From an uncultured virus (IMG/VR IMGVR_UViG_3300025030_000084) (lineage: Duplodnaviria; Heunggongvirae; Uroviricota; Caudoviricetes), in IMG/VR virus record IMGVR_UViG_3300025030_000084: DNA of 64,000 nucleotides. The stretch is one strand, 5' to 3'. A program made the translations under genes and the position numbers. The notes under the pieces are model-generated. The model ran no database searches. It was not told the origin of the DNA and was given only the letters and a program-made list of their open reading frames with translations. Shown here piece after piece: positions 7,048 through 52,675 of the stretch (positions within the stretch are counted from its first letter, which is position 1; each line of letters starts with the position of its first letter).

Positions 7048-7947
7048 TTATCTCCCCATTGCGTTATAGATTAGCTTCTGAACCGGCTTGCTTACGTTGT
7101 CTGCTGCAATCCTCTTAGAAATGTTATCACCGAACGAAAGCCCAACATCCACGTCTTTCTTGAGATTGGAAACGAAACATTCTATCCTATCGTCTCGTTG
7201 CTTCTTGACTTCAATGTGTTCCCGGCTGACTACACCCTGCTCAATCGGCAAGAAAACCTGTTCGACTTCGTTTGTATCAGCGCACCAAAGAAACACACAG
7301 GGCTTGTGGTCTGCTTGAGCGGCAGTAGTCCTAAGAAGACTCCCAGCGTTAACCAAAACTTGAGAACCCACGCGTTCAACAAAGGTTTGATGATTATCGC
7401 CAACACATATCGCGCCAAATCCATGCAGTTTTTCTATAATGGACTTTGCTGTACCTCCTGAAACAGAAGCGCCCGGAAACGGTTCTTTGCCTTTGAAAAC
7501 TAAATGATGCACCACGGCAACAAAAGGTGTGCGGCTTCTTTTAACACCACACATCTCAGTACCCCAAGGAAAACCAACGGCAGAAAACTTCCCAAGAGAA
7601 TACGCATCATCAGAATGAAGCAGTTTTATTTTTCCCGCGTCTGCCAATACGTTAATACCGCTACGCTCTATATTTTCCATTGAATGTGCTGGCAAATCAT
7701 GATTTCCCGCAATGGCGTATATGTTATCGGGAAGATTGCGGAAACAATACCCCAGTAACCACGGACTCGGTTTCCAATGATCGAACAGATCGCCCCCGAG
7801 GATAATAGGACAATTGTGTTTCTTTTGCAAATCGGATATAAAATGTAACTTTCGTGTTTGCGCTTCAATAAAATTATCTGTTCTACAAATGGGGTTATTT
7901 TCTCGTAAGTGCCAATCGGAAGTAAATATAGCTGTTGGATTTTTCAT
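7048..7947 (-). CDS. sbcD: SbcD/Mre11-like metallophosphoesterase nuclease
   Basis: SDWH, GDLFD, GNHD and GDNH calcineurin-like motifs. Confidence 0.9.
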   Translation of the reverse strand: MKNPTAIFTSDWHLRENNPICRTDNFIEAQTRKLHFISDLQKKHNCPIILGGDLFDHWKPSPWLLGYCFRNLPDNIYAIAGNHDLPAHSMENIERSGINVLADAGKIKLLHSDDAYSLGKFSAVGFPWGTEMCGVKRSRTPFVAVVHHLVFKGKEPFPGASVSGGTAKSIIEKLHGFGAICVGDNHQTFVERVGSQVLVNAGSLLRTTAAQADHKPCVFLWCADTNEVEQVFLPIEQGVVSREHIEVKKQRDDRIECFVSNLKKDVDVGLSFGDNISKRIAADNVSKPVQKLIYNAMGR

Positions 7948-8558
7948 TTACATACTCCTTTGCGTTTTGCCCATCTGAGTACACCGGCTGCTGCGATTTT
8001 TGCTTTATGTTCTTCTGTGAGTGTTGAGCCTCGTTTAGCTTCGGACATTTTACGTTTGCTTTCGTCTGTATGTTTCTTACCCGCCCAAATAGTATTACCT
8101 TTGAGAGTGTTTGAAATTTTAACCTTTGTTTCTAATGCAACAGTTTTACCTTTTTGAGATTTGGATATCTTTTCACATACACTCCTAGGTCTTGGTTTTC
8201 CTTTTAAATGAAAAGCTACGTGTTCTGCCTGTGTTGCAAATAGCTGTAAATTCTCAATGGTATCGTCATCCCTTATTTCATTAATGTGATGAACAACTTC
8301 TTTTCGTGTGAGTTTTCTACCCAAGTGCAACTCCATGACATAACGACATCTACGTACTCGTTTACCTTCGATATTGATAAGAATGTATCCACGCTCTCCT
8401 ATGGTTAAACCACCCTTCCATTTACCGTTACTACAACCTTTTCCATTATGATCTTTTATGTATTTATTCCATTTCTTACCTCTATAATGTCGTGTGACAA
8501 ATTCCCCACAACCACAAGTACATAGCGGTGGTTTTCGTTTTGGTCCTGTCGTTCTCAA
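7944..8558 (-). CDS. HNH endonuclease with NUMOD3 repeats
   Basis: CTCGCG, VVHHINEIRDDDTIENL, and HTDESKRKMSEAKRG NUMOD3 motifs. Confidence 0.85.
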   Translation of the reverse strand: MRTTGPKRKPPLCTCGCGEFVTRHYRGKKWNKYIKDHNGKGCSNGKWKGGLTIGERGYILINIEGKRVRRCRYVMELHLGRKLTRKEVVHHINEIRDDDTIENLQLFATQAEHVAFHLKGKPRPRSVCEKISKSQKGKTVALETKVKISNTLKGNTIWAGKKHTDESKRKMSEAKRGSTLTEEHKAKIAAAGVLRWAKRKGVCK

Positions 8559-9751
8559 GCTTCACCTCCACATAACGGACAAGTATCCGGCATGGCTTTA
8601 TTGAATTCAATTTCTTTATCTGTAATCTGTTTTTCCAGAGTCGTTTTCTGCTTCAGTTGTTTTTCAATCAGCATGATAAGATTCTGTAACCCCTGTCCCT
8701 CTTTCTGAACTTCGGCCCGTTGATCGATCAATTTCAGGGCTTCGGTTACGGCAGGCTCCGCTTGTAACAGGTCGGCAACCTGCGCTGAATCGTCTTCGTC
8801 ACTCTCAATAGCTATGAGTAGCTGATTAAGGCCCAAAATGGTAGCATTTAGCGGTTCTACCTCGGCAAGCAAGGAAAGGGCTTCCTTTAGTTCCGTTTCA
8901 GCCTTTAAGAGGGAATTTAGAGCCGCTATTTCTTCTTGGTCTTTGGCTATTGCGGAAATTGTACCCGTGATTTGAAAAATAGTCTGTGATACCTCTTTCT
9001 GTTCCTGAATCTGCGCGAAGACCTTGTTAATATCCGTCTCGGATTGCAGGAGGGCGGCAAGTTCTCTTTCTTCCTCTTTCTGTCTTCCGAGTGACAAGAG
9101 AAGAGTATCCAAAGATCGAATAGTATTATCAAGGCTAGAATTGCTTTCGACAAGAAGCTCATATCCATGGACGTCCTCCTCCATCTGTTTGAGGAAACCG
9201 AAAGAAGCTTTCTGTTCCTCCAACTCGGTTAACTGCGCGGTCGCTATGTTGATATCATCTTTGTTGCGTGAGGCTGTTCCTTTGATTGCTTTGATGGTTG
9301 TATCTATGATTTCCAGATTACAACATTTGTTCAGAGTCTTGGCTACCTGCCCCGCCGTTTCCCCAAGAAGGAACGGAAGGTCCATTTGACGGCTGATATT
9401 GATTTCGTCCATGTTAATGACTTCGGCAATGTCGGTAGGCATACCGTCCTTAACCACGTTCTCATAGACGTTATCAACATCGTCATTCAGCAGGTAGTAT
9501 TTGTTTTTCGGGTCGGCGGTTCTGCTTACCACGTTACCGTCCGCAAAAGTAATTTCAACGTCCGTCACCCCGCCCCAACGAGATTGATCGAGGCCGCTAT
9601 TCGTGAGCACAAGTCCGGTGGCCCTAAGTACGGCAGACTTCCCGGCGTCCGACAAACCCACGATAGCATTAACCCCCGGCTTCAGCTTTATGAGGGTGTC
9701 GCGGTGGCTTTGGAAGTTCTTTATCTGTATTTGCGTTATGTGTTCGTTCAT
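8555..9751 (-). CDS. sbcC: SbcC/Rad50-like ATPase, N-terminal half
   Basis: IKNFQSH, Walker A GLSDAGKS, long coiled coil, ends at the Zn-hook CPLC. Confidence 0.85.
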   Translation of the reverse strand: MNEHITQIQIKNFQSHRDTLIKLKPGVNAIVGLSDAGKSAVLRATGLVLTNSGLDQSRWGGVTDVEITFADGNVVSRTADPKNKYYLLNDDVDNVYENVVKDGMPTDIAEVINMDEINISRQMDLPFLLGETAGQVAKTLNKCCNLEIIDTTIKAIKGTASRNKDDINIATAQLTELEEQKASFGFLKQMEEDVHGYELLVESNSSLDNTIRSLDTLLLSLGRQKEEERELAALLQSETDINKVFAQIQEQKEVSQTIFQITGTISAIAKDQEEIAALNSLLKAETELKEALSLLAEVEPLNATILGLNQLLIAIESDEDDSAQVADLLQAEPAVTEALKLIDQRAEVQKEGQGLQNLIMLIEKQLKQKTTLEKQITDKEIEFNKAMPDTCPLCGGEA

Positions 9752-9760
9752 ATCGGTCCT

Positions 9761-10272: not shown

Positions 10273-10914
10273 TTACATGTATTTTTCTTCCTTCTTCCTG
10301 CGCCTGTCTTCCTTGGCTTGCTTCAGGGTGCGTTTCTTCTCAAGCTTCTCTTCTTTTGACTCAGCTACCAATTTCACCGTTTTAACCTGTTCAAGGGTCC
10401 AACCTGACATAGACCCTTCAGAAACTAATTCATGAACCGCATGGGCCATTTTTGCCAGCCCGTATGCGTCTGCTACGTCATTGTTCGGGGCTTCAAACCC
10501 CCACGTCTTGTAAACGTACATTTGCATCTGATCTTTATCAGCGTCCCCCCTACCGCTAACAAAGCACTTCAAGGATTTGACTTGAACGATATAGAATGGA
10601 ATGTCGAGGGAATAGAGAAGCATTCTGATAACGCCCCCAAGTTCCCCCGCTGCTTCTCGCCCATACTTGGCATTGTGGGCATACCCTTCTATGCAAACAG
10701 CTACAGGTTTAAGCTTGATACAGCAACTCCGCACTGTCTCGTAAATCTCAAAGAGCCGTTCAGCGCCCTTTGATTTCACCTTGATAGGTTTGGCGTACTT
10801 GGCATTACCTTGATCGTCAATGAACGCCACGCCGGAAGAGGTGAGGGACAGGTCCAACCCCAAGTAGACCTGTCCCGTTATGCGTTCTGCTTTCTTACCG
10901 GTGGTTCTACTCAT
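10273..10914 (-). CDS. ruvC: RuvC-like Holliday junction resolvase
   Basis: LGLDLSLTSSG, VCIEGY and DVADAY catalytic motifs; ATG 10914 overlaps the recA stop. Confidence 0.85.
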   Translation of the reverse strand: MSRTTGKKAERITGQVYLGLDLSLTSSGVAFIDDQGNAKYAKPIKVKSKGAERLFEIYETVRSCCIKLKPVAVCIEGYAHNAKYGREAAGELGGVIRMLLYSLDIPFYIVQVKSLKCFVSGRGDADKDQMQMYVYKTWGFEAPNNDVADAYGLAKMAHAVHELVSEGSMSGWTLEQVKTVKLVAESKEEKLEKKRTLKQAKEDRRRKKEEKYM

Positions 10915-12055
10915 ACCGCTTTTTCCTATCCGGTTGTACTTCCTTCTCCCGCTCGTTCCACTCTTCAGCAACTATGTCTTTCATCTCTGCCAGTCTGTCC
11001 TCCTCAGTTTCCAGCAGATCGATCAACTTGGCGCGGGAGATAGCTTCCTTCAAGCCTAAATCCCCCTTGGTATCAATGTTGGATTTGCCGCCCCCGGTCC
11101 ACGCGTCCATGTCCAGCATGAAGTCAATCATGGAGCCGATATCATCCACGCCGTAACCGTCATAGACGTTGAAGGAAACTGTGCGGCGTTTGCCCGTGAC
11201 TTTGTTCTTAGTCACCTTCACGTCACACTCCGCACCAATCCGTAACTTGGTTTTGGGATGTGTTATCTGGCCGGTAAGGATTACCCAAACTTCATGGGTA
11301 GCGTAAAACTTCAACGCCCTACCCCCGCTGCGGGTTTTCTTCTCAAAAGAACCGGGGGTGAGGTTGTCGCGGGTCTGACTGACTATCAGCAAAGCGCCCT
11401 TGGTACGCTTCAGCTTGCCGCACTCTTCCCGCAACAACTGACTGGCAAGCTTGGGTTTCGCCATGCCGTAACTGCCCTTGCTGTCCTTCTTGCTTTCCCC
11501 CAAGCGTATCTTGCGTTCCGATTCGATATGCTCCGTATCAGCTTCGGACCCAATGGCGTCAAAGGAATCCAGCACGTAGATGAACGGAACGTTATCACGA
11601 ATGGTAAGGGCTAGGTTGTCGCTGAACTGTTCGATGTTATCACTCGGCGGGTCCAGTACTTCAACCCGTTTCTCAGTCTTCGGTCCAAAGACTTCCCCAA
11701 GGTCAAATTCTAACGCGTTCTCGGCGTCATCATATCTCAGGCGCATGTTGTTATAGACGGGGTTGTAGGAAGCTTCCGCAAAAGCGGTTAGCGCAAGCTG
11801 TGTTTTGCCTGCGCCTGAGTCACCGATGATGTTAGCCATCTTCCCCAACTGCCAACCGAAATTCGGGTGTCCGGTCAAAGCAAGGTTCAGCAGGGTAGAC
11901 CCGGAAGAAACGAAGTGATCAGAATCAAGCGGTGCTTTCTTTTCCCTTTCTTTTTCGGGGGTGGTAGCCGGTTTTCTGGATCGTGATATGATCTGTTCCT
12001 TGAGCGGGGGTTTCTGCGGTGCTGCCTTGGGCTTGCTCGGCGGTGTTCGTCCCAT
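10907..12055 (-). CDS. recA: RecA/UvsX-like recombinase
   Basis: GDSGAGKT Walker A, DAENAL, VLDS, SGGRALKFYAT, TKNKV. Confidence 0.92.
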   Translation of the reverse strand: MGRTPPSKPKAAPQKPPLKEQIISRSRKPATTPEKEREKKAPLDSDHFVSSGSTLLNLALTGHPNFGWQLGKMANIIGDSGAGKTQLALTAFAEASYNPVYNNMRLRYDDAENALEFDLGEVFGPKTEKRVEVLDPPSDNIEQFSDNLALTIRDNVPFIYVLDSFDAIGSEADTEHIESERKIRLGESKKDSKGSYGMAKPKLASQLLREECGKLKRTKGALLIVSQTRDNLTPGSFEKKTRSGGRALKFYATHEVWVILTGQITHPKTKLRIGAECDVKVTKNKVTGKRRTVSFNVYDGYGVDDIGSMIDFMLDMDAWTGGGKSNIDTKGDLGLKEAISRAKLIDLLETEEDRLAEMKDIVAEEWNEREKEVQPDRKKRYE

Positions 12056-12337: not shown

Positions 12338-13498
12338 TTACTTACCTTCGTGACAAGCTTTGCACTTCTCCCACGTTTCTTCAGGGCAGGTATCGATGCA
12401 GCAATCCTGCGTTTCGTGGTCTTCCCCGAATTTCAACCCGTGCGGGCAGGGGTTTTCTTCCTTGGCTGCGCCACGGGTACGCCTGCCGCTGGGGGCCGGA
12501 TCTTCCTTCTTCTCTTCTTCCTTGGCTGCGCCCCTACCCCTGCGGCCTGCCGGGGCTTCTTCCTTCTTCTCTTCCGGTTCAGCAGCGCCACGCCTGCGGC
12601 GTCCCTCTTCTTTGGGCGGGTCGGCTTCCTCTTTTTCAGCGCCACGTCCCCGCCTTCTGCCGGTGTTCTCTTCCTTGGTGGGTTCCGGGTCTTCTTCCTT
12701 GGCTTCGGCCCCCCTGCGGCGTCCTGCGGGCTTCTCTTCTTCCTTTTCCTTGCCGGAATCAGCGATAGCAAGGAAGATCGCCTCTAACTTCTCGTAGGGG
12801 TGGATTTCGATGATGCTATCGAGGTCGAGGGTTTCGTCCAGAATCTCCTCGCCGTAAGCGTCCCGGTCGTCCGCGTCGATGCGGTCGCACTCGAAAAACT
12901 TGTTCTTGCCCATCGACTTCTCTTGGAAGGAAGCGATGAGCGTCTGCCCGTCTTCCAGATCCGCGAAACCGGCGTGGACCGTCTTGCGGCGGCGGGTGCT
13001 GCCTGCGCCGTTCTCGGTCTTGTTGATTTCCAGCAGCAGCTTTTTGTTGAACAGATGGTGGCTGTACTCAAAAAGCTGGATGGTCCCGGAATCGTCTTTC
13101 AGGTCGATAACCTGGAAAATTACGCGGTCCTTCGGGACTAGCGCCTTGACTTCTTCGTCCGTGGCGCTCGGGTCTTTTGCCAGAACCTTGTGAGCCTCAC
13201 AGATCGGGCAGGGGAGGCCGATGGTGCGTGGGCAAATATAGGACTTCTCTTCCGCACCGATGTTATAGTGGACCTTGATATCCTTCTTGTACCAGAGGTC
13301 GCCGGGGTTCAACCCTTCCGGGTGGTTCTTGATGGTGACTTCGTAAGGGAGGCAATCCAGCTCGTATTCCTCGGCTTTCGGCTGGAAGAACTTAGCTTTC
13401 GCGCCGTCCGGTATCTTGATGTACGCTGCACCGCCGGAAGCCTGTTTTGCTGCCGCCTCTTTTACCCTTTCCCTCATGCTGGGTCGTTTGCTTGCCAT
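12338..13498 (-). CDS. Single-stranded DNA-binding protein, T4 gp32-like, with long repetitive tail
   Basis: VHY...CPRTIGLPCPICE Zn motif, acidic core, location in the recombination cluster, and codon bias typical of highly expressed genes. Confidence 0.7.
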   Translation of the reverse strand: MASKRPSMRERVKEAAAKQASGGAAYIKIPDGAKAKFFQPKAEEYELDCLPYEVTIKNHPEGLNPGDLWYKKDIKVHYNIGAEEKSYICPRTIGLPCPICEAHKVLAKDPSATDEEVKALVPKDRVIFQVIDLKDDSGTIQLFEYSHHLFNKKLLLEINKTENGAGSTRRRKTVHAGFADLEDGQTLIASFQEKSMGKNKFFECDRIDADDRDAYGEEILDETLDLDSIIEIHPYEKLEAIFLAIADSGKEKEEEKPAGRRRGAEAKEEDPEPTKEENTGRRRGRGAEKEEADPPKEEGRRRRGAAEPEEKKEEAPAGRRGRGAAKEEEKKEDPAPSGRRTRGAAKEENPCPHGLKFGEDHETQDCCIDTCPEETWEKCKACHEGK

Positions 13499-19738: not shown

Positions 19739-19739
19739 A

Positions 19740-19899: not shown

Positions 19900-20898
19900 T
19901 TAATCCTCCTTCGGCGCATAGGTTTTGACGATGTGGATAAAATCGTCCGTCTGGAACAACAACCGCCCTTCGGCAATGACGATAGTGGTTCCTATCTTGA
20001 GCATGGAAACCAGAAAGTCCGGGTGTATATCGAAATCAACAGGCTTACCCGCATACTTCACCCTTGCGATTTCCTCATACCAACCCGCGTTGCCATCGGT
20101 GGAAACGGTTAGCTTGCTGCCGTTCAGGGCCACGTTGACCCTTTCGCCGTCTGACATGGTATCGGCACGGTCCAGCATCTCCCCCATTTCTTCGGGGAAT
20201 TCCCCTTTCTCGCCCTTGCACTCAAGGAAACGATCAAGGTTCGGGTAGCTCTCTTCAGTGGTACGGCAAGAAAAGGTTACGTCCTGCGCGTTGCGGAAGT
20301 GCAACCATCCGTCCGTCTCGGCGTACTCATTGCAGTTGTAGTTGATAAGGTGACGGGCAGCGGAAGCGGGGATCATAAGTTCCCGCATGGCAACGTCTTC
20401 GCTGGTGAAGTAGCGGGTTGCTCTATCGTTATCGCAGGATTCAACACAGTCCTCTAAAACGTGGATATGTGTTAGTGCCGCCTTGTTAGCGTCCCTACCT
20501 GCCGAAAAGAGGCAGAATTTGACCGCAGGGGCGAAGTTCGCGGGGAGGGGTTCCCATTCCTCGGGCATTCCTAAATCTTCCAGTGGTAGGCATATTTCAG
20601 CCTCTAAACGCAGCCCTGCTTTTGCCTTGCTGCCGACAACCCGCAACTCCCCTTCGCTCAGGGTCAGTTCGATTTCAGCAGGCTTGAGTTTCCCGATCAG
20701 GTCTAAGAAGTTCTTAGCCGGAACAACCCCGGTGAAGTTCACGGTAACGGGATGGGACACTGCAATGTCATCGTTGAACGCAAAAACTTTACCGTTCTGG
20801 AAAACAAACGATGCGCTTTGTTGCAAAGCTTCTTTTTTAGCGATTCCTGGCATTACTGCTGCTAAGGCTTCTTCGAGTTTTAGGCGATTTACTTTCAC
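19900..20898 (-). CDS. dnaN: Sliding clamp (beta-clamp-like)
   Basis: AAGGAG RBS and GTG at 20898; ~330 aa; ESCDNDRA, YPNLDRFL and DIHPDFL match the three-domain DnaN pattern. Confidence 0.75.
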   Translation of the reverse strand: MKVNRLKLEEALAAVMPGIAKKEALQQSASFVFQNGKVFAFNDDIAVSHPVTVNFTGVVPAKNFLDLIGKLKPAEIELTLSEGELRVVGSKAKAGLRLEAEICLPLEDLGMPEEWEPLPANFAPAVKFCLFSAGRDANKAALTHIHVLEDCVESCDNDRATRYFTSEDVAMRELMIPASAARHLINYNCNEYAETDGWLHFRNAQDVTFSCRTTEESYPNLDRFLECKGEKGEFPEEMGEMLDRADTMSDGERVNVALNGSKLTVSTDGNAGWYEEIARVKYAGKPVDFDIHPDFLVSMLKIGTTIVIAEGRLLFQTDDFIHIVKTYAPKED

Positions 20899-21364
20899 GA
20901 TTTCTCCTTTTCTTAGTTTCTGAGATTTTCTTTCTGGTTTCTTCGCTAACGCCGTGACCCATTCTGGCCTTTGATATTTTAGCTCCTGTTCCTGCTGGCT
21001 TCGCAACCCCCTTATGATGCAGAGAAGCGTGTTCGGCTCTAGTGAGTATTTCCAGATTATCTATAGCGTCATTTGTTGAATCTTCGTCCTTGTGGTGTAC
21101 TATCTCACTGGATAACAGCTTTCGTCCCAAATGCTGCTCCATAACTAATCTAGCTCGTTTAATAGCTGGACCTTTGCCAACACTTACCGCATATCGATTG
21201 AGTGCTTTTTGTAAATGAACGCCGCCCTTCCAATTGGGGTTGTGTTCTTGTCTTACGTTGTGAGTATAGATAAAACGATTCCATTTCCCCCGTTTTTTAG
21301 TTACGGGAGCACCACAACCGCAAGCGCACAATGGAGGATTCCGTTTCGGCCCTGTCGTTCTCAT
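20837..21364 (-). CDS. HNH endonuclease with NUMOD3, paralogue of 7944-8558
   Basis: CACGCG, PNWKGG, IVHHKDEDSTNDAIDNLE, SEETRKKISE. Confidence 0.85.
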   Translation of the reverse strand: MRTTGPKRNPPLCACGCGAPVTKKRGKWNRFIYTHNVRQEHNPNWKGGVHLQKALNRYAVSVGKGPAIKRARLVMEQHLGRKLLSSEIVHHKDEDSTNDAIDNLEILTRAEHASLHHKGVAKPAGTGAKISKARMGHGVSEETRKKISETKKRRNRESKSPKTRRSLSSSNARNR

Positions 21365-30007: not shown

Positions 30008-30239
30008 TTTGATAAATCTCCTTTGCTGTGAAATAGTTGATTGCGTCAATTTCTGCGAATGTGCAATTGCGGATTTTAGCGGGGTCTGCGCTAATCCCCA
30101 AGCTGTCGTCCTTCAGGTTTACCAGCATCGGCCATCCTCGGTGGTCAGGGTTCCCGGCGTACCTCCAACACCCCCCTAGATACCACACATAGCTAGTGTG
30201 TTCGCCCTTCTTGGCGTAGTTATCAATCATGCTGGACAT
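29976..30239 (-). CDS. Hypothetical protein
   Basis: TAATG coupling, GGGGAG RBS. Confidence 0.55.
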   Translation of the reverse strand: MSSMIDNYAKKGEHTSYVWYLGGCWRYAGNPDHRGWPMLVNLKDDSLGISADPAKIRNCTFAEIDAINYFTAKEIYQNVAKPNQPTN

Positions 30240-30625
30240 TACTCCCCCGTTTTGAGTTTTGATATCCTATCTCTACTACCTGCCATGAGTTCCCTGAAAG
30301 TGGCGCAGGTAGTGTTATCGGCGCATGTTCCGTGGCAGATTATGTTGTCAACCCAATACGGCGTCTCCCCGTCAAACTTGCAGCGGTATTTGCAGTTTTC
30401 CGGGGGGTTCATGCTGTACCCGCCATGACCCTTGCCTTTATACTCCGACAGCCTAGAATCGACCTTTGCGCGGCCTGTAGCTATGTCTTCCACCGTCTCA
30501 TGTTCCCCTTCCGGTGAATACAACCAGAATTCGCCATTAGTCATGCGGCAAATCCGATACCCCTTATAGTCAAGGGTGCGTTGAATAGTGGGTTGCGGTT
30601 TCTTAGGGGTTGTTGTTCTTGCCAT
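30239..30625 (-). CDS. Hypothetical protein (starts MARTT)
   Basis: GGAGG RBS before ATG 30625; Cys-rich C-terminal half. Confidence 0.65.
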   Translation of the reverse strand: MARTTTPKKPQPTIQRTLDYKGYRICRMTNGEFWLYSPEGEHETVEDIATGRAKVDSRLSEYKGKGHGGYSMNPPENCKYRCKFDGETPYWVDNIICHGTCADNTTCATFRELMAGSRDRISKLKTGE

Positions 30626-34292: not shown

Positions 34293-34553
34293 TTACAGCA
34301 AGTGACTATAGGGGGATTGCATTGCTTTGATTTCGGGGGGGAGGCGTCCCTGCAACTCAATAAGCGCAAAGGCAATACGGTCGGGAATAACGTAGTTTTG
34401 CCAAAGGTACTGGATATGCAGCCATACGTTTTTCAGTCGGGGGTTGTTCCTTGCATGGTACGCATTGCAGGCGCATATCAGGTAGATGCAGGGGCGCTCT
34501 TTTATGGGGGTTGCTGATGGGGATTTACGGCGTGTAGGGATAGTAGTACGCAA
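34293..34553 (-). CDS. Hypothetical protein (starts MRTT)
   Basis: AAGGAGG RBS, TTG start. Confidence 0.55.
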   Translation of the reverse strand: MRTTIPTRRKSPSATPIKERPCIYLICACNAYHARNNPRLKNVWLHIQYLWQNYVIPDRIAFALIELQGRLPPEIKAMQSPYSHLL

Positions 34554-41051: not shown

Positions 41052-41063
41052 TTGTCAAAGAAC
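41052..41063 (-). promoter_or_regulatory. BoxA-like antitermination element
   Basis: GTTCTTTGACAA on the minus strand, ~200 nt downstream of the early promoter. Confidence 0.45.
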
Positions 41064-41266
41064 TACATGTCCGCTTGCTGGGGCAAACTAGACTAGGTTG
41101 GCGCTTATGCCGTTTCGTTTCCTCATGTGGTCCTATTTCTGCTATGAGCCGTAACGTCGCGCTAATCGACAAACAGGGGACCGGAGGTAAACCGGGAAAA
41201 CGCCGAAAGTGGAAAGAACAGATTTGTTTCTGTGCTGCCGTCGCGTCTCAAAAACCGCTTGCGCTT

Positions 41267-41295
41267 TTTATACCATACAAAATAAGGGTTGTCTA
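41267..41295 (-). promoter_or_regulatory. Early sigma70-type promoter
   Basis: TAGACA-17 bp-TATAAA with extended -10 TG and an AT-rich upstream region. Confidence 0.6.
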
Positions 41296-42756: not shown

Positions 42757-43458
42757 ATGAACAAAGAAACAACAGGCGCTAAAATCGTTAGGTATGTGGC
42801 TTATTATAGGGTTTCTACACAGAAGCAAGGACAGAGCGGTTTAGGTTTAGATGCACAACGCGCCATGATAGCAGATTTTATGAAATATAATACCGGGGAA
42901 TTGGTGGCGGAATACACTGAAATTGAATCTGGTAAACGTTCCGATAGACCTCAATTAGCCGCTGCAATGCGTCATGCCGATCTTATAGGTGGCAAGCTGT
43001 TAGTGGGGAAGCTGGACAGGTTATCAAGAGATTTGCATTTCATTACTTCTTTACAGAAATCAAAGGTGGAATTCGCTGTTTGTGATTTACCGGGGTGTGA
43101 CAGTTTCACCATTCACATATACGGTGCTTTGGCTCAGAGAGAACGGGAAATGATATCATCCAGAACTAAGGCGGGACTTCAGGCTGCTAAGGCTAGGGGT
43201 GTTATCCTCGGCACCAACAACCTGAAACCTGAGTTAGTGAAAGAGGCCAGTGACAAAGGTAACGCCGTTATCAAACGGAACGCAGAGGCGTTTGCGGATA
43301 AGGTTATCACTATCATACGGGCGTTACGGGATCAGGGTAAGAGCCTTCAGGTAATCGCCAATGAATTATGTCGGCTAGGGGTACAAACAGCTAGGGGTGG
43401 AGCTTGGACACCTACGGCGGTACGTAATGTAATGGTGAGGGTAGAGAATAGAGCGTAG
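42757..43458 (+). CDS. Serine recombinase (resolvase family)
   Basis: YYRVSTQKQ catalytic Ser, RPQL, KLDRLSR, EREMISSRTKAGL; ~233 aa. Confidence 0.92.
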   Translation: MNKETTGAKIVRYVAYYRVSTQKQGQSGLGLDAQRAMIADFMKYNTGELVAEYTEIESGKRSDRPQLAAAMRHADLIGGKLLVGKLDRLSRDLHFITSLQKSKVEFAVCDLPGCDSFTIHIYGALAQREREMISSRTKAGLQAAKARGVILGTNNLKPELVKEASDKGNAVIKRNAEAFADKVITIIRALRDQGKSLQVIANELCRLGVQTARGGAWTPTAVRNVMVRVENRA

Positions 43459-45492: not shown

Positions 45493-46242
45493 ATGGCAAG
45501 AACGACGATATTTCAAACGAAACGCGGGCCTAAGATAGTCACGGAAAAAGAGAAGGACGCCCCTGTCAGGCACCAAAGGGCTGTTGCGACATCTTCGCAC
45601 GGGCGTAGGGGACAACCCCCTGTATATGACGCCGAACGGTTCCCTTACATTGCCGGTGTACTGTGCAAGGAACGAGGCTTTACCAGTGAGGAATTGGCGC
45701 GGGTCTTCGGCGTGTCTAAAAAGACGGTCGATTATTGGATGATAACCCATGACGATTTCAAGAATGCCGTTAGGCAGGGGCGCTTTGCTTTCGACACTTC
45801 TAACGTAGAACAAGCCCTGTTGAAACGAGCCTTGGGTTACACCTACGAGGAACGCACCACTAAATCAATATACCTGCGCGAGAAGAACGACGCCGGGAAA
45901 GTAGTCAAGATCCCCGCCAAAGAGGTTTCCGTGGTAGTCAAGGAAATCCCGCCTGATGTTAAGGCGTGCACCTTCTGGCTCACCAATAGGCAACCGGACG
46001 ACTGGAAAATGACTATCAATGTGAAGGGTGAACATGTTATGACGAATAACAATAACAACCTTCAGATTGCCGTTACTGCCGATTTGGAGCACATGGACGA
46101 ACAGCAGTTGATGGCACTTCGGGAAATGGTAGCTCAGAACCAAGAACGGACAGGCAACGCGCCCAAGACCATCGAAATGACCCCGATCCACGATTTGCTG
46201 GAACGTGCAGATAAGATGTATATCCCGGACGGTATTGAATGA
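45493..46242 (+). CDS. terS: Terminase small subunit
   Basis: HTH (ELARVFGVSKKTV..W), ALLKRALGY.YEE, PPDVKACTFWLTNR; directly upstream of TerL. Confidence 0.8.
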   Translation: MARTTIFQTKRGPKIVTEKEKDAPVRHQRAVATSSHGRRGQPPVYDAERFPYIAGVLCKERGFTSEELARVFGVSKKTVDYWMITHDDFKNAVRQGRFAFDTSNVEQALLKRALGYTYEERTTKSIYLREKNDAGKVVKIPAKEVSVVVKEIPPDVKACTFWLTNRQPDDWKMTINVKGEHVMTNNNNNLQIAVTADLEHMDEQQLMALREMVAQNQERTGNAPKTIEMTPIHDLLERADKMYIPDGIE

Positions 46243-47828
46243 GAACAACAGGCTATAAGCAACAGCGAACCAATACACCGCCTGCCGTGGACATGGCGAT
46301 TGCCCGCAGGCTCTTAAATACGTCTCCAGAGACGATTGACAAGATGCTTGCGGAAAAGCGCCTTGTTCACTTTCTAAAGCAGGTATGGCCTAGTATTGAC
46401 CCCCATACATACACTCACGGCTGGCACATAGACTGCATTTGCGATCACCTTGAGGCGGTTATGTCAGGGGAGATCAAGCGCCTTTCCATTAACGTCCCTC
46501 CCCGCCATTGTAAGTCGATTTTGATAGCGGTTGCTTTTCCTGCGTGGGCGTGGCTAAAGAAACCTTCGCTTCAATTTCTCTTTTCCTCTTATGCGCACTC
46601 ACTCTCTATTCGTGACGGTGTTAAATGTCGCCGTGTTATCGAAAGCCCTTTGTATCAGTCTCGTTGGGGTAATTCGGTTAAGCTGACTTCCGACCAGAAC
46701 ACGAAAGTTCGTTTCGATAACGATAAAGGCGGCTACCGTATTTGTACCTCCGTTGACGGCATGACCACTGGCGAAGGTGGCGACATTATTGTTATCGATG
46801 ATGCCAACAACGTAAGGGAAGCCGAATCGGAAGCAACCAGAACAGCGACAAACAACTGGTATGACGAAGTTATGCAGTCTCGTTTCAACGATCCCAAGAC
46901 CGGGGCGCTGGTAACGATTCAGCAGAGAACGCACCATTTGGATCTTTCCGGTCATATAATTCGCAAATACGGTAATGAATATACATATCTAATTCTTCCG
47001 GCTGAATATGAGATTGATAGTAAACGTAAAATGAGTTTGAAAACTTTTCACGGTTGGACGGACCCCCGGAAAGAAGAGGGGGATCTACTTTGGCCGGAAC
47101 AGTTTGGACGTGCGGAACTAGACATTTTGAAGAATGCGTTAGGCGCGTATGCTTCGGCGGGTCAACTCCAGCAAAGACCATCTCCCCGCGAAGGTGGATT
47201 AATCCCCCTGAACATGTTTCAGCGGTACAAAACACCTCCCGCAAGAGAAACTTGGAAACGCATTTCATTGGTATTTGATACTGCCTCCAAAGAGAATGAA
47301 CTGAATGACTATTCAGTGTGTGAGGTATGGGTTGAAACAGCAAGGGGTTTCTTTCTCCTGTATCTTTGGCGTAAGCGGTGCGCTTTCCCCGAACTCAAAC
47401 GCGCAGCTAGATCGTTATGCGAAGAATGGCGTCCTCATGAGGTATTGATAGAAGATAAATCTTCCGGCATTGCCTTGATTGCCTGCCTCAAGGAAGAAAC
47501 GAAATTCAATGTTATTGGTATTGATCCGGGCGCATTCAGTAAGACAATTCGGATGGAAAATGAATCGGTAGCTATCGAATCTGGTTCTGTGTGGATTCCT
47601 GAACATGCCGGGGTGGAAGTCGAAATCAATCAGACCACTAAGAAAGCGTTGTGGTTGTCTGACTTCGAGGAAGAATGCATGTGTTTTCCTATGGGAGAAC
47701 ATGACGATACTATCGACCCCATGAGTATGTATTTGAAACGTGTCAGGGAAAGACGCCAGCGTGGGCCAACTGTCGTTGCTCCGCATTTTGGTGATATGAC
47801 TAAGACTAATCTATTTGGCAGCGTTTAA
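46239..47828 (+). CDS. terL: Terminase large subunit
   Basis: INVPPRHCKS, IIVIDD, LQQRP, DTASK...DYSV, IEDKSSG, HDDTID. Confidence 0.95.
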   Translation: MRTTGYKQQRTNTPPAVDMAIARRLLNTSPETIDKMLAEKRLVHFLKQVWPSIDPHTYTHGWHIDCICDHLEAVMSGEIKRLSINVPPRHCKSILIAVAFPAWAWLKKPSLQFLFSSYAHSLSIRDGVKCRRVIESPLYQSRWGNSVKLTSDQNTKVRFDNDKGGYRICTSVDGMTTGEGGDIIVIDDANNVREAESEATRTATNNWYDEVMQSRFNDPKTGALVTIQQRTHHLDLSGHIIRKYGNEYTYLILPAEYEIDSKRKMSLKTFHGWTDPRKEEGDLLWPEQFGRAELDILKNALGAYASAGQLQQRPSPREGGLIPLNMFQRYKTPPARETWKRISLVFDTASKENELNDYSVCEVWVETARGFFLLYLWRKRCAFPELKRAARSLCEEWRPHEVLIEDKSSGIALIACLKEETKFNVIGIDPGAFSKTIRMENESVAIESGSVWIPEHAGVEVEINQTTKKALWLSDFEEECMCFPMGEHDDTIDPMSMYLKRVRERRQRGPTVVAPHFGDMTKTNLFGSV

Positions 47829-47848: not shown

Positions 47849-49267
47849 ATGGCACGTACCACTAAACCGACATTGAGTAAAAGCACAAGCCTGTCTGAGA
47901 TAGGCACAACCGGATTACGTGCTTTTGGCGGGCAGATCAGCGAAGAGTTTTTGAAACAGCTTGCGGGCCTGAAAGGTATCAAGGTCTATGTCGAAATGCG
48001 AGACAACGATCCTACTATTGGGGCAATACTCTTTATCATCGAAAAGCTGTTGCGTAACGTCAAATGGAAGGTAGAAGAGGCAAGCAAAGACGCCGCAGCG
48101 CAGGACGCCGCCGATTTCCTGAAAGAGTGCATGGGGGACATGGAGCATTCGTGGGAAGATATGATATCAGAAATCACGTCCATGCTCACGTTTGGTTTTG
48201 CTCCGCTGGAAAAGGTTTACAAAGTCAGGGCGGGTCTGCAATCCAATAAGAGCTATCGTAGCAAGTTCACGGACGGTAGGGTAGGATGGCGCAAGCTTCC
48301 GTTACGCGCACAAGAAACCCTTTGGTCGTGGGAATTTGATGAATCCGGGGACGTGGTAAAGCTTATACAACTTCCTTCCTTGGGGCAGAGGCGCGAAATT
48401 CCCATGAGCAAAATCCTTCTGTTCCGTACACAGTCATATAAGAACAATCCACAAGGTAGATCCATTCTCAGAAATGCCTATCGTTCTTGGTTATTTAAAA
48501 AACGTATTGAGGAGATTGAAGGGATAGGCATTGAGCGGGACTTGGCCGGTTTGGTCGTGGTCAAGGTTCCCGCCAATCTTCTGTCAAAGGACGCATCTGA
48601 TGATGAAAAGGCAACCCTTGCTGCATTGAAGAACCTTGCACAGAACATACGCCGGGACGAGCAGGAGGGTGTTGTGTTCCCCCTTGTCTATGACACGGAT
48701 GGTAATGAAATGTATAAACTGGAACTGCTTTCCACTGGCGGGAGTAGGCAGTTCGATACATCACAAATTGTAGACCGTTATGATAAGCGCATCGCCATGA
48801 CGGTTGTTGCTGATTTCATTTTCTTGGGTCAAAGCAAGGTCGGGAGCTTTGCGTTATCGTCGGACAAAACCGATATGTTTTCTGCAAGCCTTGGCGCATG
48901 GCTTAATGGTATTGCTTCTGTGTTCAACATGGACGCTATACCGGAACTCATGACTGTTAACAATATCGCGCCTGAACATTGGCCCAAGCTTGTTGCCGGG
49001 GATCTTGAGAAACCGGACGTTGCCAAGTTTGTTGACGCTTTGTATAAGCTTGTTGGTGTTGGGGCGCTGTTGCCGGACGAATCGGTTGATACTAAGATAC
49101 GTGAACTTCTGGACATGCCGAAACTGATTTCCGATGGCAATGAGATAGTCCCTATGGATTTTATCGAACAGAAGCTAGAAAACGAGAAAGCCCCGGCGAA
49201 CGGCGATATAAAGAATCCGGCAAGTGGAAAGAAGAAAAACACAACTGGTATCGGTGCGGTGAAATAG
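47849..49267 (+). CDS. Portal protein (DUF935-like)
   Basis: EIGTTG, GFAPLE.VY, NP.GRSILR.AY, IERDLAG, GSFALS. Confidence 0.88.
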   Translation: MARTTKPTLSKSTSLSEIGTTGLRAFGGQISEEFLKQLAGLKGIKVYVEMRDNDPTIGAILFIIEKLLRNVKWKVEEASKDAAAQDAADFLKECMGDMEHSWEDMISEITSMLTFGFAPLEKVYKVRAGLQSNKSYRSKFTDGRVGWRKLPLRAQETLWSWEFDESGDVVKLIQLPSLGQRREIPMSKILLFRTQSYKNNPQGRSILRNAYRSWLFKKRIEEIEGIGIERDLAGLVVVKVPANLLSKDASDDEKATLAALKNLAQNIRRDEQEGVVFPLVYDTDGNEMYKLELLSTGGSRQFDTSQIVDRYDKRIAMTVVADFIFLGQSKVGSFALSSDKTDMFSASLGAWLNGIASVFNMDAIPELMTVNNIAPEHWPKLVAGDLEKPDVAKFVDALYKLVGVGALLPDESVDTKIRELLDMPKLISDGNEIVPMDFIEQKLENEKAPANGDIKNPASGKKKNTTGIGAVK

Positions 49268-50375: not shown

Positions 50376-51119
50376 ATGATTGAGAAAACAGTTTCCATTT
50401 ACGCGTTAGTTGATCCGAGGGACGGTAGGGTTAGGTATGTAGGTAAAACTGAAAAAACAATAGAACATAGACTTAAACAGCATTTGAATAACAGAAAAGA
50501 TAAGACGCATAAGCAAAATTGGTTTGATTCGTTGTTTGCTTTGGGACTTAAACCCAGTATCGTTCTGATTGAAAAGGTATCAAAAAGAAATTGGGAAAGG
50601 AATGAACGTTATTGGATTAAATACTATAACGATAGGGGTTTCGCTTTAACCAATAGCACACCCGGAGGCGGAGATATACCAATCACAGATGAAATTCGTA
50701 AAAAGATGTCAGAATCAGCAAAGAAGAAAATTTTTACTGAAGAGCATCGGCGTAATATGGGTAATGCTCGTAGAGGTAGAACGCATACAGAAGAAGCAAA
50801 AAGGAAAATGCGGGAATCAAAACTCGGAGATAAGAACCCAAGACGGCAAAAAGTATTTACCGAGGAAGAATGTAAGAAGATGTCGGAAATGTCAAAGCGG
50901 CGGGTATTTACAGAAGAATATCGCCGCAACCTTTCCATTGCTGGTAAAGGGCGTGTAGTAAGTGAAGAGACTAAGCGGAAGTTATCAGAATCGAAGAAAG
51001 GTAAACCGTCGGGGACAAAAGGACGGGCTTTTTCTGAAGAGCATCGAAATAAAATAGCTGCCGCAGCAAAACTGCGCACACGACAGTGTGGACCGGACGG
51101 TAGATTCTTATCAAAATAG
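50376..51119 (+). CDS. GIY-YIG homing endonuclease with NUMOD3 repeats
   Basis: SIYAL.DPR...YVGKT..RL.QH, ERYWI, LTN; several TEEHRRNM-type repeats. Confidence 0.9.
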   Translation: MIEKTVSIYALVDPRDGRVRYVGKTEKTIEHRLKQHLNNRKDKTHKQNWFDSLFALGLKPSIVLIEKVSKRNWERNERYWIKYYNDRGFALTNSTPGGGDIPITDEIRKKMSESAKKKIFTEEHRRNMGNARRGRTHTEEAKRKMRESKLGDKNPRRQKVFTEEECKKMSEMSKRRVFTEEYRRNLSIAGKGRVVSEETKRKLSESKKGKPSGTKGRAFSEEHRNKIAAAAKLRTRQCGPDGRFLSK

Positions 51120-51232
51120 GTCAGGTTGGTGATGTGTTTCACTGAGTTGGCACAGAAGACAGAAACGAAAAACAGGTATACTTGTAATTTTGGATAGTGT
51201 AAGGGCTTAAACAACATTAAGGGGGATAGCAA

Positions 51233-51646
51233 ATGGCAGACGATTCGATAGTTTTTAAGGGGGAACTGAAGAAGGTTGACCCCGTACATAAGATTGCTTA
51301 CGGCTGGGCTTATGTATCAAAAAAAGGCGAATCCGTTGTTGAAGACCATTCGGGCGATATGTGGCCCATCGAAGAAGTGGAAAAAACGGCTCATGATTTC
51401 ATTTCCTGTAGGGTTGGGGGTGAAAGCCACGAAAGCACGGGCGGGGCCGAATTGGTTGCGTCAATCGTTTTCGACAAAGCCGTGCAGGACGCCCTCGGAA
51501 TAGATATCAAAAAGGACGGTGAATCGGTGGAGGGGTGGTTTGTGGGTTTCAGAATCACCGACCCTGAATTGCTTGAGAAAGTACAAAAGGGAGAGCTTTC
51601 AATGTTTTCTATCGGTGGGACTGGAACAAGGGAGGAAATCAAATAA
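51233..51646 (+). CDS. Prohead protease, XkdF-like
   Basis: YGWA, DHSGD, GESH, GWFVG, MFSIGG. Confidence 0.8.
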   Translation: MADDSIVFKGELKKVDPVHKIAYGWAYVSKKGESVVEDHSGDMWPIEEVEKTAHDFISCRVGGESHESTGGAELVASIVFDKAVQDALGIDIKKDGESVEGWFVGFRITDPELLEKVQKGELSMFSIGGTGTREEIK

Positions 51647-52675
51647 ATGGCACGGACAACCGGACCTACGCACAAGCTGAAAGACGTAAAGCTGAACGAA
51701 ATTTCCTTTGTGGGCAAGGGCGATAACCCCGAAGCCCACGTACTGCTCCTGAAGCGCAAGCCGAATACCAAGCAATCCATTACCAAGCTCGGCAAGGAAT
51801 ACACCGGCACGGGCGAACAGGTTGTTGCACTGGCAAAGTGGCTTGAGGGTGCAAAAGAAATCCTCAAAGACGCGGCGACCTTCCAGCAGTTGATTGACAA
51901 CAAGGATATCAAAGATAAGGTGTGGGGGATGGTCTACACCCTTGAGGATTCCATTTACTCCATCATGAATGACGGCGAGTGTACCGACAAAGCAGCAATG
52001 ATCCAACAGAGCGTGGACGAATTCAAAAACGTGATAACCACACTAACCAAGGAGGCAACAGACATGCCGGAAAAAGTAGTCAAGGAACTGGAAGCAAAGG
52101 TAACGGGTCTGGAAAAAGAGAAAGTAGATCTTCAGGCCGAAATCGCAACCCTCAAGACCGCACCGAAGACCGGGGATAAATGCCCCACTTGCGGCGTCAC
52201 CAAGGAAGCCCCGAAGGACGAGATCGACAAGTCGGCCCTGCCGGAAGCGGTACGGAAACGGCTGGAAGATCAGGATGCGGAGATCGAGAAGAACCGCAAG
52301 GAAACCGAAGTTCTGAAGGAAGCCGAACTTACCCGCGAGTACATCGGCAAGGCCGCAGAAATCGGCGCTGTCGGCAAGGTGGACGAAGTAGGCGACCTGC
52401 TGAAGTCCGTTGCCAAGGTAAGCAAAGAACTTGCCGGTAAGGTGTTCGATGTGCTGAAAGCCGCCGATGCTCGTATCAAGACCGGGGGGCTGTTCAAGGA
52501 AATCGGCACCGATGCAGGCGGGGACGCAACCGCATCCGCTTCCGAGAAGATCACGCAGAAAGCCGCCGAACTGCGCAAAACCTGCCCCGAACTGACCAAA
52601 GAGCAGGCGTGGACCAAGGTTTACGACACCGACGCGGACCTGCGCAAAGAGTACATCGCAGAGCGCAAACGCTAA
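51647..52675 (+). CDS. Scaffold protein with protease-like N-terminal segment
   Basis: LNEISFVGKGDNPEA, then coiled coil; internal RBS and ATG at 52064. Confidence 0.75.
   Translation: MARTTGPTHKLKDVKLNEISFVGKGDNPEAHVLLLKRKPNTKQSITKLGKEYTGTGEQVVALAKWLEGAKEILKDAATFQQLIDNKDIKDKVWGMVYTLEDSIYSIMNDGECTDKAAMIQQSVDEFKNVITTLTKEATDMPEKVVKELEAKVTGLEKEKVDLQAEIATLKTAPKTGDKCPTCGVTKEAPKDEIDKSALPEAVRKRLEDQDAEIEKNRKETEVLKEAELTREYIGKAAEIGAVGKVDEVGDLLKSVAKVSKELAGKVFDVLKAADARIKTGGLFKEIGTDAGGDATASASEKITQKAAELRKTCPELTKEQAWTKVYDTDADLRKEYIAERKR

What the first reader, a model, noticed from the sequence alone, without database searches (positions are those of the whole stretch)
7944..52675. Shared N-terminal M-(A/S)-R-T-T peptide on nine proteins from eight unrelated families: candidate phage-wide tagging/sorting system
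Seen: TerS 45493 MARTTIF (AGA ACG ACG); TerL 46239 MRTTGY (AGA ACA ACA); portal 47849 MARTTKP (CGT ACC ACT); scaffold 51647 MARTTGP (CGG ACA ACC); RuvC 10914 MSRTTGK (AGA ACC ACC); HNH 8558 and HNH 21364 both MRTTGPK (AGA ACG ACA); hypothetical 30625 MARTTTP (AGA ACA ACA); hypothetical 34553 MRTTIP (CGT ACT ACT). RecA (MGRTPP) and 36062 (MARQT) are near matches. In the recognisable proteins the motif sits on a basic/Pro-rich extension ahead of the catalytic fold. Three Arg codons and all four Thr codons are used, so selection appears to act on the peptide rather than a DNA motif. Carriers span early, middle and late genes on both strands and are largely DNA-packaging and DNA-cutting proteins. 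Inference: an address tag for an assembly/replication compartment, a modification site (Thr phosphorylation or N-terminal modification; it superficially resembles the histone H3 ARTK tail), or a protease/AAA+ adaptor recognition signal. I know of no described phage system of this kind.
Basis: partly seen in the sequence, partly recalled or inferred. Interest (0 to 1): 0.9.

Follow-up and report, generated by a model that had tools for sequence, protein, structure and literature searches.

The report
Shared N-terminal tag in a phage
Nine unrelated proteins of this uncultured phage, mostly DNA-packaging, head-assembly and DNA-cutting proteins, begin with the same few amino acids on a floppy arm, and relatives keep or jointly change this start, so it looks like a shared docking label whose reader is still unknown.

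Summary
All nine N-termini M-(A/S)-R-T-T are in the sequence. A six-frame scan of 6365 start codons finds exactly these nine, all at real gene starts. That is 9 of 93 proteins, against a mean of 0.28 and a maximum of 4 in 20,000 column shuffles.

Four relatives (portal 63-92% identical) keep M-(A/G/S)-R-T-(T/K/S) on the orthologues. The codons change and the 10-60-residue linker behind the tag diverges, so selection acts on the peptide.

Phages sharing only the head genes, and three cultured phages, lack the tag.

Across lineages, the TerL, portal and scaffold-like starts change together within a genome: RTT; MRTSVR on two proteins; (A/S)INR on three (P about 1.5e-4).

Best reading, about 45%: a short docking motif on a flexible arm, read by a co-evolving partner that I did not identify. 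Rivals are a basic nucleic-acid-binding arm and an optimum for translation or N-terminal processing. I found no description in print.

Earlier notes of this scan report other shared terminal tags in other phages, but not this one.

The parts
45493..46242 (+). Small terminase, starts MARTTIFQTKRGPK; tag codons 45496-45507
   Evidence: sequence. PHROG terminase small subunit from residue 60. MART kept in 5 of 5 genomes.
46239..47828 (+). Large terminase, starts MRTTGYKQQRT; start overlaps the TerS stop
   Evidence: Terminase_6C. Homologues in cultured phages mostly align from residue 9-42 onward. Tag in 4 of 5 genomes, G005 lacks it.
47849..49267 (+). Portal protein (Mu-type), starts MARTTKPTLSK; conserved core begins at about residue 14-17
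   Evidence: Portal_Mu. Tag in 5 of 5 genomes. Of the 60 closest database homologues, 27 start M[ASGP]?RT, against 1 of the next 60.
51647..52675 (+). Scaffold-like all-helical protein, starts MARTTGPTHKL, then the conserved block LNEISFVGKGDNPEA
   Evidence: No Pfam family. AF2 model is helical and residues 1-25 have pLDDT <50. Tag in 5 of 5 genomes. 22 of 58 homologues start M[ASGP]?RT and 44 of 58 start M[ASGP]?R.
10273..10914 (-). RuvC-like Holliday-junction resolvase, starts MSRTTGKKAER
   Evidence: RuvC domain from residue 18. G002 has MSRTTGKK, G004 MSRRTP, G005 MPRKK.
7944..8558 (-). HNH/NUMOD3 homing-type endonuclease, TTG start, MRTTGPKRKPPLCTCGCG; lies between the Rad50 N-half and Mre11 genes
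   Evidence: Paralogue of 20837-21364. Absent from the four relatives.
20837..21364 (-). HNH endonuclease, MRTTGPKRNPPLCACGCG
   Evidence: 48% identical to the other HNH overall, but 12 of the first 13 residues are identical. A Staphylococcus-phage homologue has no such start.
30239..30625 (-). Cys-rich hypothetical protein, MARTTTPKKPQ
   Evidence: Orthologues in G003 (MARTTG), G004 and G005 (MARTKGI). No family. AF2 model unusable.
34293..34553 (-). Hypothetical 86-aa protein, TTG start, MRTTIPTRRKS
   Evidence: G003 orthologue starts MARTTPISPRP and aligns only from residue 18.
10907..12055 (-). RecA/UvsX-like recombinase with a degenerate tag, MGRTPPSKPK
   Evidence: Orthologues start MARTSN (G002), MARTTS (G005) and MARVK (G004).

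Best explanation
The tag is a short linear docking motif. Its core is x-Arg-Thr-(Thr/Lys) at the very N-terminus, where x is the retained Met or the Ala/Ser/Gly left after Met removal. It sits at the tip of a flexible, basic, Pro/Thr/Ser-rich arm of 10-60 residues. One phage lineage has put this arm on its packaging proteins (TerS, TerL), head-assembly proteins (portal, scaffold-like) and DNA recombination or cutting proteins (RecA/UvsX, RuvC, HNH; in relatives also UvsY-like, Mre11-like and DUF3150).

I infer that all carriers use it to reach one common partner whose binding site co-evolves with the tag, so that the proteins that process and package the replicated DNA are brought to one place. 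The partner is not identified. Candidates are the portal vertex, the phage SSB-DNA filament, or a host factor.

Shown: the motif, its enrichment, selection at peptide level, its restriction to one lineage, the variable linker, and the co-variation between proteins.

Inferred: docking, one reader, and the role in recruitment.
For: 1. Enrichment is far beyond chance: 9 of 93 proteins, against a shuffle maximum of 4 in 20,000. All 9 six-frame matches among 6365 start codons lie at real gene starts.

2. Orthologues in four relatives keep M[AGS]?RT. Portal, TerS and the scaffold-like protein keep it in 5 of 5 genomes, the 30625 family in 4 of 4, and TerL in 4 of 5. Arg and Thr codons change, and the residues behind the tag diverge in sequence and length with in-frame indels.

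3. The layout is terminal motif, then disordered linker, then fold. Residues 1-25 of the scaffold-like model have pLDDT <50.

4. The tag is absent from highly expressed structural proteins: capsid MPQPSV, tube MPTTGF, decoration MAIEQP. It is also absent from G008, which shares only the head module, and from three cultured phages. The 76 other IMG/VR loci with portals of about 43-65% identity hold 20 loose matches in all.

5. Concerted change within genomes:
- W, G002 and G003 use RTT almost throughout; G004 and G005 use mostly RTK.
- In locus L121, TerL is MINRK and portal is MALNRK, with different codons.
- Over 11 lineages, TerL-portal N-terminal similarity within a genome sums to 32, against a mean of 19.2 for shuffled pairings (P about 1.5e-4).
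- In 19 portal/scaffold pairs, portal RT goes with scaffold RT in 12 of 13, counting the G003 portal by its re-read start.

6. A mobile HNH gene found only in this genome carries the tag in both copies.
Against: - No reader was found.
- Portal and scaffold on one side, and recombination enzymes on the other, are not known to share a partner.
- The motif is soft in the wider lineage: RI, RK, RQ, RR, RV and INR all occur. TerL of several lineages has no arm at all.
- AGA supplies 6 of the 9 Arg codons in the tag, against 17% genome-wide. So some selection on the mRNA (an A-rich 5' end) acts as well.
- The co-variation test pairs proteins by equal contig length, which is an inference. It uses start codons chosen by the sources' gene callers and 11 lineages that I picked. 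It does not correct for shared ancestry.
- True N-termini are not verified by any protein data.
Confidence: 0.45

Rival explanations
1. The tags are generic nucleic-acid-binding arms. A basic N-terminal tail (free amino group, Arg, hydroxyl residues, Lys/Pro) contacts DNA or RNA phosphate without any dedicated protein reader. This would work like the RKR residues 3-5 of the phi29 connector, or like the Lys-Arg-Lys-Ser-Thr (LAST) motif of T4 gp32.
For: - Most carriers act on DNA.
- The arms are rich in K, R, P, T and S, and include S/T-P-K-K-like stretches.
- The phi29 connector binds pRNA through a disordered N-terminal RKR (PMC12084888, passages read).
- The gp32 LAST sequence occurs both in the N-domain and in the ssDNA trough (PMC12893549, abstract and passages).
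Against: - Charge alone does not explain the near-invariant Thr after Arg, or the preference for Arg over Lys. 41 of the 60 closest portals have R at that position.
- It does not explain why different proteins of one genome change the tag together.
- The scaffold-like protein and DUF3150 are not known DNA binders.
Confidence: 0.2
2. The tag is a cis-acting optimum rather than a docking tag. Proteins whose N-terminus is free of fold constraints drift to the start sequence that best suits translation initiation or early elongation, Met removal, or N-terminal stability in this host.
For: - A-rich codons (AGA, ACA, AAA) are over-used in the tag: AGA in 6 of 9, against 17% genome-wide.
- MA- and MAR-type starts are common in the wider family: 44 of 58 scaffold-like homologues start M[ASGP]?R.
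- A host-specific optimum could also change in concert.
Against: - The most highly expressed genes (capsid, tail tube, decoration) lack it, while low-copy enzymes and a selfish HNH carry it.
- Arg is kept through CGN codons in about a third of cases.
- Other disordered basic N-termini in the same genome lack it: SSB MASKRPSM and UvsY-like MSVEERRR.
- Closely related phages use quite different 4-7-residue versions, such as MRTSVR and (A/S)INR.
Confidence: 0.2
3. The tag is a modification or processing site. For example, Thr is phosphorylated or glycosylated, the N-terminus is acetylated or methylated, or the arm is removed by a protease. The modification would switch the carriers on or off together.
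For: - Invariant hydroxyl residues sit next to Arg at a free terminus.
- Portal (LSE-IG) and the scaffold-like protein (LNE-IS) have L-x-E exactly where the variable arm meets the conserved core. From memory, this resembles the cleavage site of the T4 prohead protease.
- The phage encodes an XkdF-type protease and a DUF2201 metallopeptidase-VWA protein with a MoxR ATPase.
Against: - Pfam found no kinase, glycosyltransferase or acetyltransferase in the window.
- L-x-E at the junction is seen in only 2 of 9 carriers.
- Nothing here tests modification.
Confidence: 0.12
4. The pattern is chance, wrongly chosen start codons, or shared ancestry of the carriers.
For: - The two HNH genes are paralogues.
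- Four of nine carriers have one in-frame start further upstream.
Against: - Shuffles never exceed 4.
- The eight families share no detectable similarity beyond the tag.
- The motif is conserved at the same place in five genomes with synonymous changes.
- Five of nine carriers have no possible upstream start.
Confidence: 0.02

Closest known systems
LAST motif (Lys-Arg-Lys-Ser-Thr, residues 3-7) of phage T4 gene 32 protein
   Same: It is a very short motif of basic plus hydroxyl residues at the extreme N-terminus, on a flexible segment. It docks onto an acidic surface of a neighbouring protein, and the same sequence type also contacts ssDNA (PMC12893549, abstract and passages).
   Different: LAST is known on one protein, the SSB itself, for self-cooperativity. 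Here the motif has one Arg and sits on at least eight unrelated families. The phage's own gp32-like SSB starts MASKRPSM, without the tag.
N-terminal RKR (residues 3-5) of the phi29 connector
   Same: It is a disordered N-terminal tail of a portal protein with an essential basic triplet right after Met-Ala, and it recruits a packaging component (PMC12084888, passages).
   Different: It is specific to one protein and binds pRNA. It is not shared with terminase, scaffold or recombination enzymes, and no Thr is involved.
Capsid targeting sequence of T4 internal proteins (recalled, not read here)
   Same: It is an N-terminal peptide shared by unrelated phage proteins that acts as an address. Portal and the scaffold-like protein here also have L-x-E at the end of the arm.
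   Different: Most carriers here are enzymes that act outside the capsid. Cleavage has not been shown.
Terminal hub-binding tails: clamp-binding tails of T4 gp43/gp55/gp33 and SSB C-terminal tips (recalled)
   Same: These are one short terminal peptide on a flexible linker, shared by many DNA-transaction proteins to reach one hub.
   Different: Those tails are hydrophobic or acidic and mostly C-terminal. This one is polar and basic and strictly N-terminal. The phage has its own clamp (19900-20898, PHROG processivity factor), but nothing links it to the tag.
Histone H3 N-terminus A-R-T-K (recalled)
   Same: Relatives G004 and G005 and many database homologues start MARTK. After Met removal this would be the same four residues.
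   Different: This is a resemblance only. The genome is a tailed phage with Shine-Dalgarno sites, and no chromatin-type reader is known or was found.

Membership tests
T4-type capsid targeting sequence (CTS) | Shared peptide at the N-terminus of unrelated phage proteins | tested here: met
   9 of 93 proteins in the window, conserved in relatives.
T4-type capsid targeting sequence (CTS) | Carriers are internal head proteins packed into the prohead (definition recalled) | tested here: not met
   Carriers include TerS, TerL, RuvC, RecA-like and HNH by Pfam/PHROG. Only portal and the scaffold-like protein are head-assembly proteins.
T4-type capsid targeting sequence (CTS) | Tag removed by the prohead protease at L/I-x-E (definition recalled) | tested here: inconclusive
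   L-x-E at the arm/core junction in portal (LSE) and the scaffold-like protein (LNE) only, 2 of 9. Cleavage itself cannot be tested here.
gp32 LAST motif | (Lys/Arg)3(Ser/Thr)2 at residues 3-7 of the N-domain | tested here: inconclusive
   The tag has the same order (basic, then two hydroxyl residues) but one basic residue: R-T-T. Definition from PMC12893549.
gp32 LAST motif | Sits on the SSB and binds the core of the adjacent SSB | tested here: not met
   The gp32-like SSB (12338-13498) starts MASKRPSM. The tag is on other proteins. Binding was not tested.
Sliding-clamp-binding motif | Hydrophobic consensus of the QL[SD]LF type (recalled) | tested here: not met
   The tag is polar and basic, with no hydrophobic residues.
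Bacterial N-degron (ClpS) signal | N-terminal Leu, Phe, Tyr or Trp (recalled) | tested here: not met
   Encoded N-termini are M-R, M-A-R, M-S-R and M-G-R. Processing that might expose another residue cannot be tested here.
Histone H3 tail mimic | A-R-T-K at a free N-terminus, read by chromatin-type domains of the host | not testable with these tools
   ARTK-type starts occur in relatives. The host is unknown: no prophage or genome match above 54% portal identity.

The most novel reading that the evidence does not exclude
A mid-sized tailed phage lineage uses an N-terminal address code. A 3-6-residue tag on a flexible arm is read by one co-evolving receptor, most attractively the portal vertex. 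This would dock, in turn, the scaffold, the terminase subunits and the enzymes that repair or resolve DNA during packaging. Selfish homing endonucleases would have copied the tag to get the same access. Each sub-lineage has re-coded tag and receptor together (RTT, RTK, MRTSVR, (A/S)INR).
Probability: 0.2. Interest if true: 0.85.

Novelty: new variant of a known kind. Interest (0 to 1): 0.66.

Why it matters
Short terminal peptides that bring many proteins to one hub are known for replication clamps, SSB tails and T4 internal proteins. I know of none that joins head assembly, DNA packaging and recombination enzymes, and two literature searches found none.

If one reader exists, it would show how a phage couples resolution of branched DNA, packaging and head assembly in space. 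It would also give a portable tag for sending proteins to that site.

The joint re-coding of the tag on several proteins in sister lineages is a natural experiment.

Tried and rejected
- **Complex prediction.** One job tested TerS residues 1-32 against the SSB core, the clamp-like protein and the DUF2201 peptidase-VWA protein together. The verdict was 'no answer' (score 0.00). It counts neither for nor against binding.
- **ESM Atlas** for the two hypothetical carriers: no usable hit.
- **AF2 of the 30625 family** with four sequences: mean pLDDT 52, unusable, so no fold search was run.
- **DNA or RNA motif reading.** Rejected because orthologues and paralogous positions use different Arg and Thr codons and the flanks differ.
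- **Rare-codon/tRNA idea.** The window encodes no tRNA, and Arg is not always AGA.
- **ParA-type ATPase partner.** The 'ATPase' at 5281-5907 is the C-terminal half of a Rad50-like protein, not a ParA.
- **Host identification.** The genome scan found only portals of 54% identity or less, in Bacillota prophages that lack the arm. The nearest cultured phages reach 52% (portal) and 42% (TerL) identity at most.
- **More relatives.** The metagenome scan added no new close relative beyond a 3-kb contig.
- **Subtractive gene content.** Not informative. The nearest tag-free complete genome, G008, shares only head genes.
- **Literature.** 'MARTT' matched only unrelated words. The combination 'N-terminal motif / unrelated proteins / bacteriophage / targeting' gave nothing relevant in its 15 listed rows.
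- **Megablast** of the packaging region against phage records: no match.

Full report
**What the window is.** The 64-kb window is most of an uncultured siphovirus-type phage. I listed 94 genes. A 100%-identical database protein lies on a contig of 73,849 bases.

Pfam and PHROGs name these modules:
- A late module on the + strand: TerS, TerL, Mu-type portal, MuF-like protein, GIY-YIG endonuclease, XkdF-type protease, the 51647 protein, a decoration or scaffold-like protein, major capsid protein, and tail genes.
- A long – strand block of replication and recombination genes: split family-A polymerase, clamp-like protein, clamp-loader subunit, DnaB-like helicase, primase, SNF2 helicase, gp32-like SSB, RecA/UvsX-like, UvsY-like, RuvC, and split Rad50-like plus Mre11-like.
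- A MoxR / DUF3150 / DUF2201-VWA trio.

No phage record matches at DNA level. The nearest cultured phages reach 42% (TerL) and 52% (portal) identity.

**The observation.** All nine claimed N-termini are there, with the stated codons.
- A scan of every ATG, GTG and TTG in six frames (6365 start codons) for start-[ASG]?-R-T-T finds exactly nine matches. All nine lie at the first (5 of 9) or second (4 of 9) start of a real gene.
- That is 9 of 93 proteins. Shuffling residues among proteins within each of positions 2-8 keeps the local richness in R and T. It gives a mean of 0.28 and a maximum of 4 in 20,000 shuffles. The commonest tripeptide of any kind in a shuffle averages 2.2 and never exceeds 5.
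- Internal RTT is near expectation: 7 observed against 3.9 expected in 18,430 residues.
- Controls:
  - Roseobacter phage CRP-901 has 0 matches.
  - Rhizobium phage RHph_X3_2 has 3 matches, all in ORFs of 8-29 residues.
  - In 67 annotated proteins of Vibrio phage MAR10, no N-terminal tripeptide recurs more than twice.

**Relatives.**
- IMG/VR holds a fragment of the same virus (G001).
- It also holds four relatives:

| Relative | Portal identity | Size | Status |
|---|---|---|---|
| G002 | 92% | 51.7 kb | incomplete |
| G003 | 70% | 65 kb | – |
| G004 | 70% | 75.4 kb | complete, terminal repeats |
| G005 | 63% | 68.4 kb | – |

- The orthologues keep M-(A/G/S)-R-T-(T/K/S/A/I):
  - portal, TerS and the 51647 protein in 5 of 5 genomes;
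  - the 30625 family in 4 of 4;
  - TerL in 4 of 5 (G005 starts MLNKQ);
  - RecA-like as MGRTP, MARTS, MARTT and MARVK;
  - RuvC as MSRTT in two genomes, then MSRRT and MPRKK.
- Relatives add carriers: an Mre11-like and a UvsY-like protein in G005, and the DUF3150 protein, two paralogous 195-202-residue proteins and a 150-residue protein in G004.
- The Arg and Thr codons differ among orthologues. For portal they are CGT ACC ACT, AGA ACT ACA, CGG ACA ACT and AGA ACA AAG.
- The residues after the tag differ in sequence and length, and the ORFs stay open. Similarity resumes only at the conserved core. So the arm is translated, and selection holds the peptide at its tip.
- AGA is over-used in the tag (6 of 9, against 17% genome-wide), so an A-rich 5' end is favoured as well.

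**Limits of the distribution.**
- Of the 60 database portals closest to this one (about 54-91% identical), 41 start M[ASGP]?R and 27 start M[ASGP]?RT. Of the next 60, the counts are 4 and 1.
- Cultured-phage portals align only from residue 17.
- G008 (50.8 kb, 99% complete) shares only head genes and has no convincing carrier.
- The 76 further IMG/VR loci, with portals of about 43-65% identity, hold 20 loose matches in all, scattered singly.
- The tag therefore belongs to one lineage defined by a large shared core, not to the portal family as such.

**Co-variation.**
- Within W, G002 and G003 the fifth residue is T almost throughout. In G004 and G005 it is mostly K.
Other lineages then show other versions shared by different proteins of one genome:
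  - TerL MRTSVRQ with portal MRTSVRK;
  - TerL MRTA with portal MRTA;
  - TerL MSINR with portal MAINR and scaffold-like MATINR;
  - portal MGRQN with scaffold-like MSRQT;
  - portal MARK with scaffold-like MARR.
- In locus L121, TerL is MINRK and portal is MALNRK, encoded by different codons.
- Over 11 lineages, TerL-portal similarity of the first seven residues sums to 32, against a mean of 19.2 for shuffled pairings (P about 1.5e-4).

**What it most likely is.** A terminal motif on a disordered, variable linker, shared by unrelated proteins and changing in concert, has the anatomy of a tethered docking peptide with one co-evolving reader.
- By the standard rule for Met removal (recalled), A, S or G at position 2 is exposed and Met before Arg is kept. 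All versions would then put Arg at mature position 2 and Thr at position 3, which suits a reader that also grips the free amino terminus.
- The carriers are the proteins that meet on replicated, branched DNA and at the portal vertex. From memory, T4 endonuclease VII binds the T4 portal and T4 terminase binds gp32, so the portal or the SSB filament are reasonable candidates. I could not test them properly: the one complex job gave no answer.
- The closest documented precedents are the gp32 LAST motif and the phi29 connector RKR. Each is known on a single protein.

**Rivals.**
- A generic nucleic-acid arm explains the charge and the kind of carriers. It does not explain the invariant Thr, the preference for Arg over Lys, or the concerted re-coding.
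- A translation or processing optimum explains the A-rich codons and the common MAR start. It does not explain why capsid, tube and decoration proteins lack the tag while low-copy nucleases and a selfish HNH have it. Nor does it explain why close relatives use quite different 4-7-residue versions.
- A modification or cleavage site is a special case of a reader and stays open. Portal and the scaffold-like protein have L-x-E exactly at the arm/core junction.
- Chance or wrong starts are excluded for practical purposes.

**Novelty.** Two full-text searches found no description. Earlier notes of this scan list shared terminal tags in other, mostly giant, phages with other sequences. None is on this genome or with this motif. 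I file the finding as a new variant of a known kind, the shared terminal docking peptide.

Noticed in passing
window 5281-9751 (- strand): The Rad50/SbcC-like ATPase is split. The N-terminal half is at 8555-9751 (AAA_23/SMC_N) and the C-terminal half at 5281-5907 (matches Rad50 C-lobe chains in PDB, E 4e-5). The tagged HNH, the Mre11-like phosphoesterase (7048-7947) and three small ORFs lie between them.
   Followed up: partly
window 17121-19786 (- strand): The family-A DNA polymerase is in two abutting ORFs: a UDG-like domain plus 3'-5' exonuclease (18521-19786) and the polymerase domain (17121-18524).
   Followed up: no
window 12338-13498 (- strand): The gp32-like SSB carries a 120-200-residue tail of alternating acidic (E/K/P) and GRRRG or KKK blocks, ending in a Cys-rich motif. 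The tail is present but very different in sequence in G002, G004 and G005. It could act as a multivalent or condensate-forming hub.
   Followed up: partly
window 22765-23565 (- strand): A conserved 266-residue protein has an acidic N-part, a histone-H1-like K/A/P-rich middle and a small C-terminal domain. It has no family hit.
   Followed up: no
window 51647-51740 and portal 47849-47910: Right after the variable arm, the scaffold-like protein has the nearly invariant block L-N-E-I-S-F-V-G-K-G-D-N-P-E-A, and the portal has L-S-E-I-G. Both give L-x-E at the junction, which may be a protease site. The gene directly follows the XkdF-type protease gene (stop TAA, then ATG).
   Followed up: partly
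L107:18274-18948 (G004) and L109:11476-11943 (G005): Orthologues of the 30625 protein contain a second, internal S-R-T-K-G-V stretch at the start of their Cys-rich C-terminal part. It looks as if a once separate tagged module had been fused on.
   Followed up: no
window 4647-5318, 25539-26066, 50376-51119, 20837-22049: The window holds several further homing-type endonuclease genes without the tag: AP2-HNH, an HNH fragment, and GIY-YIG/NUMOD3 between the MuF and protease genes. The tagged HNH at 20837-21364 sits next to a truncated N6/N4 DNA methylase. A cyanophage has a similar HNH region inside its methylase gene.
   Followed up: no
window 36494-39687 (- strand): A MoxR-type AAA+ ATPase, DUF3150 and DUF2201 (metallopeptidase + VWA) trio is conserved in G003, G004 and G005. 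In G004 the DUF3150 member itself starts MARTKGV.
   Followed up: partly
window 40377-43458: About 2.3 kb has little coding signal between the divergent early and late blocks. It is followed by a serine recombinase gene (42685-43458), which is unexpected in an apparently lytic genome.
   Followed up: no
database proteins P0012, P0021; locus L121: Some portal homologues of the sister lineage are 823-824 residues long and carry a homing-endonuclease (intein-type, PF05204) insert.
   Followed up: no
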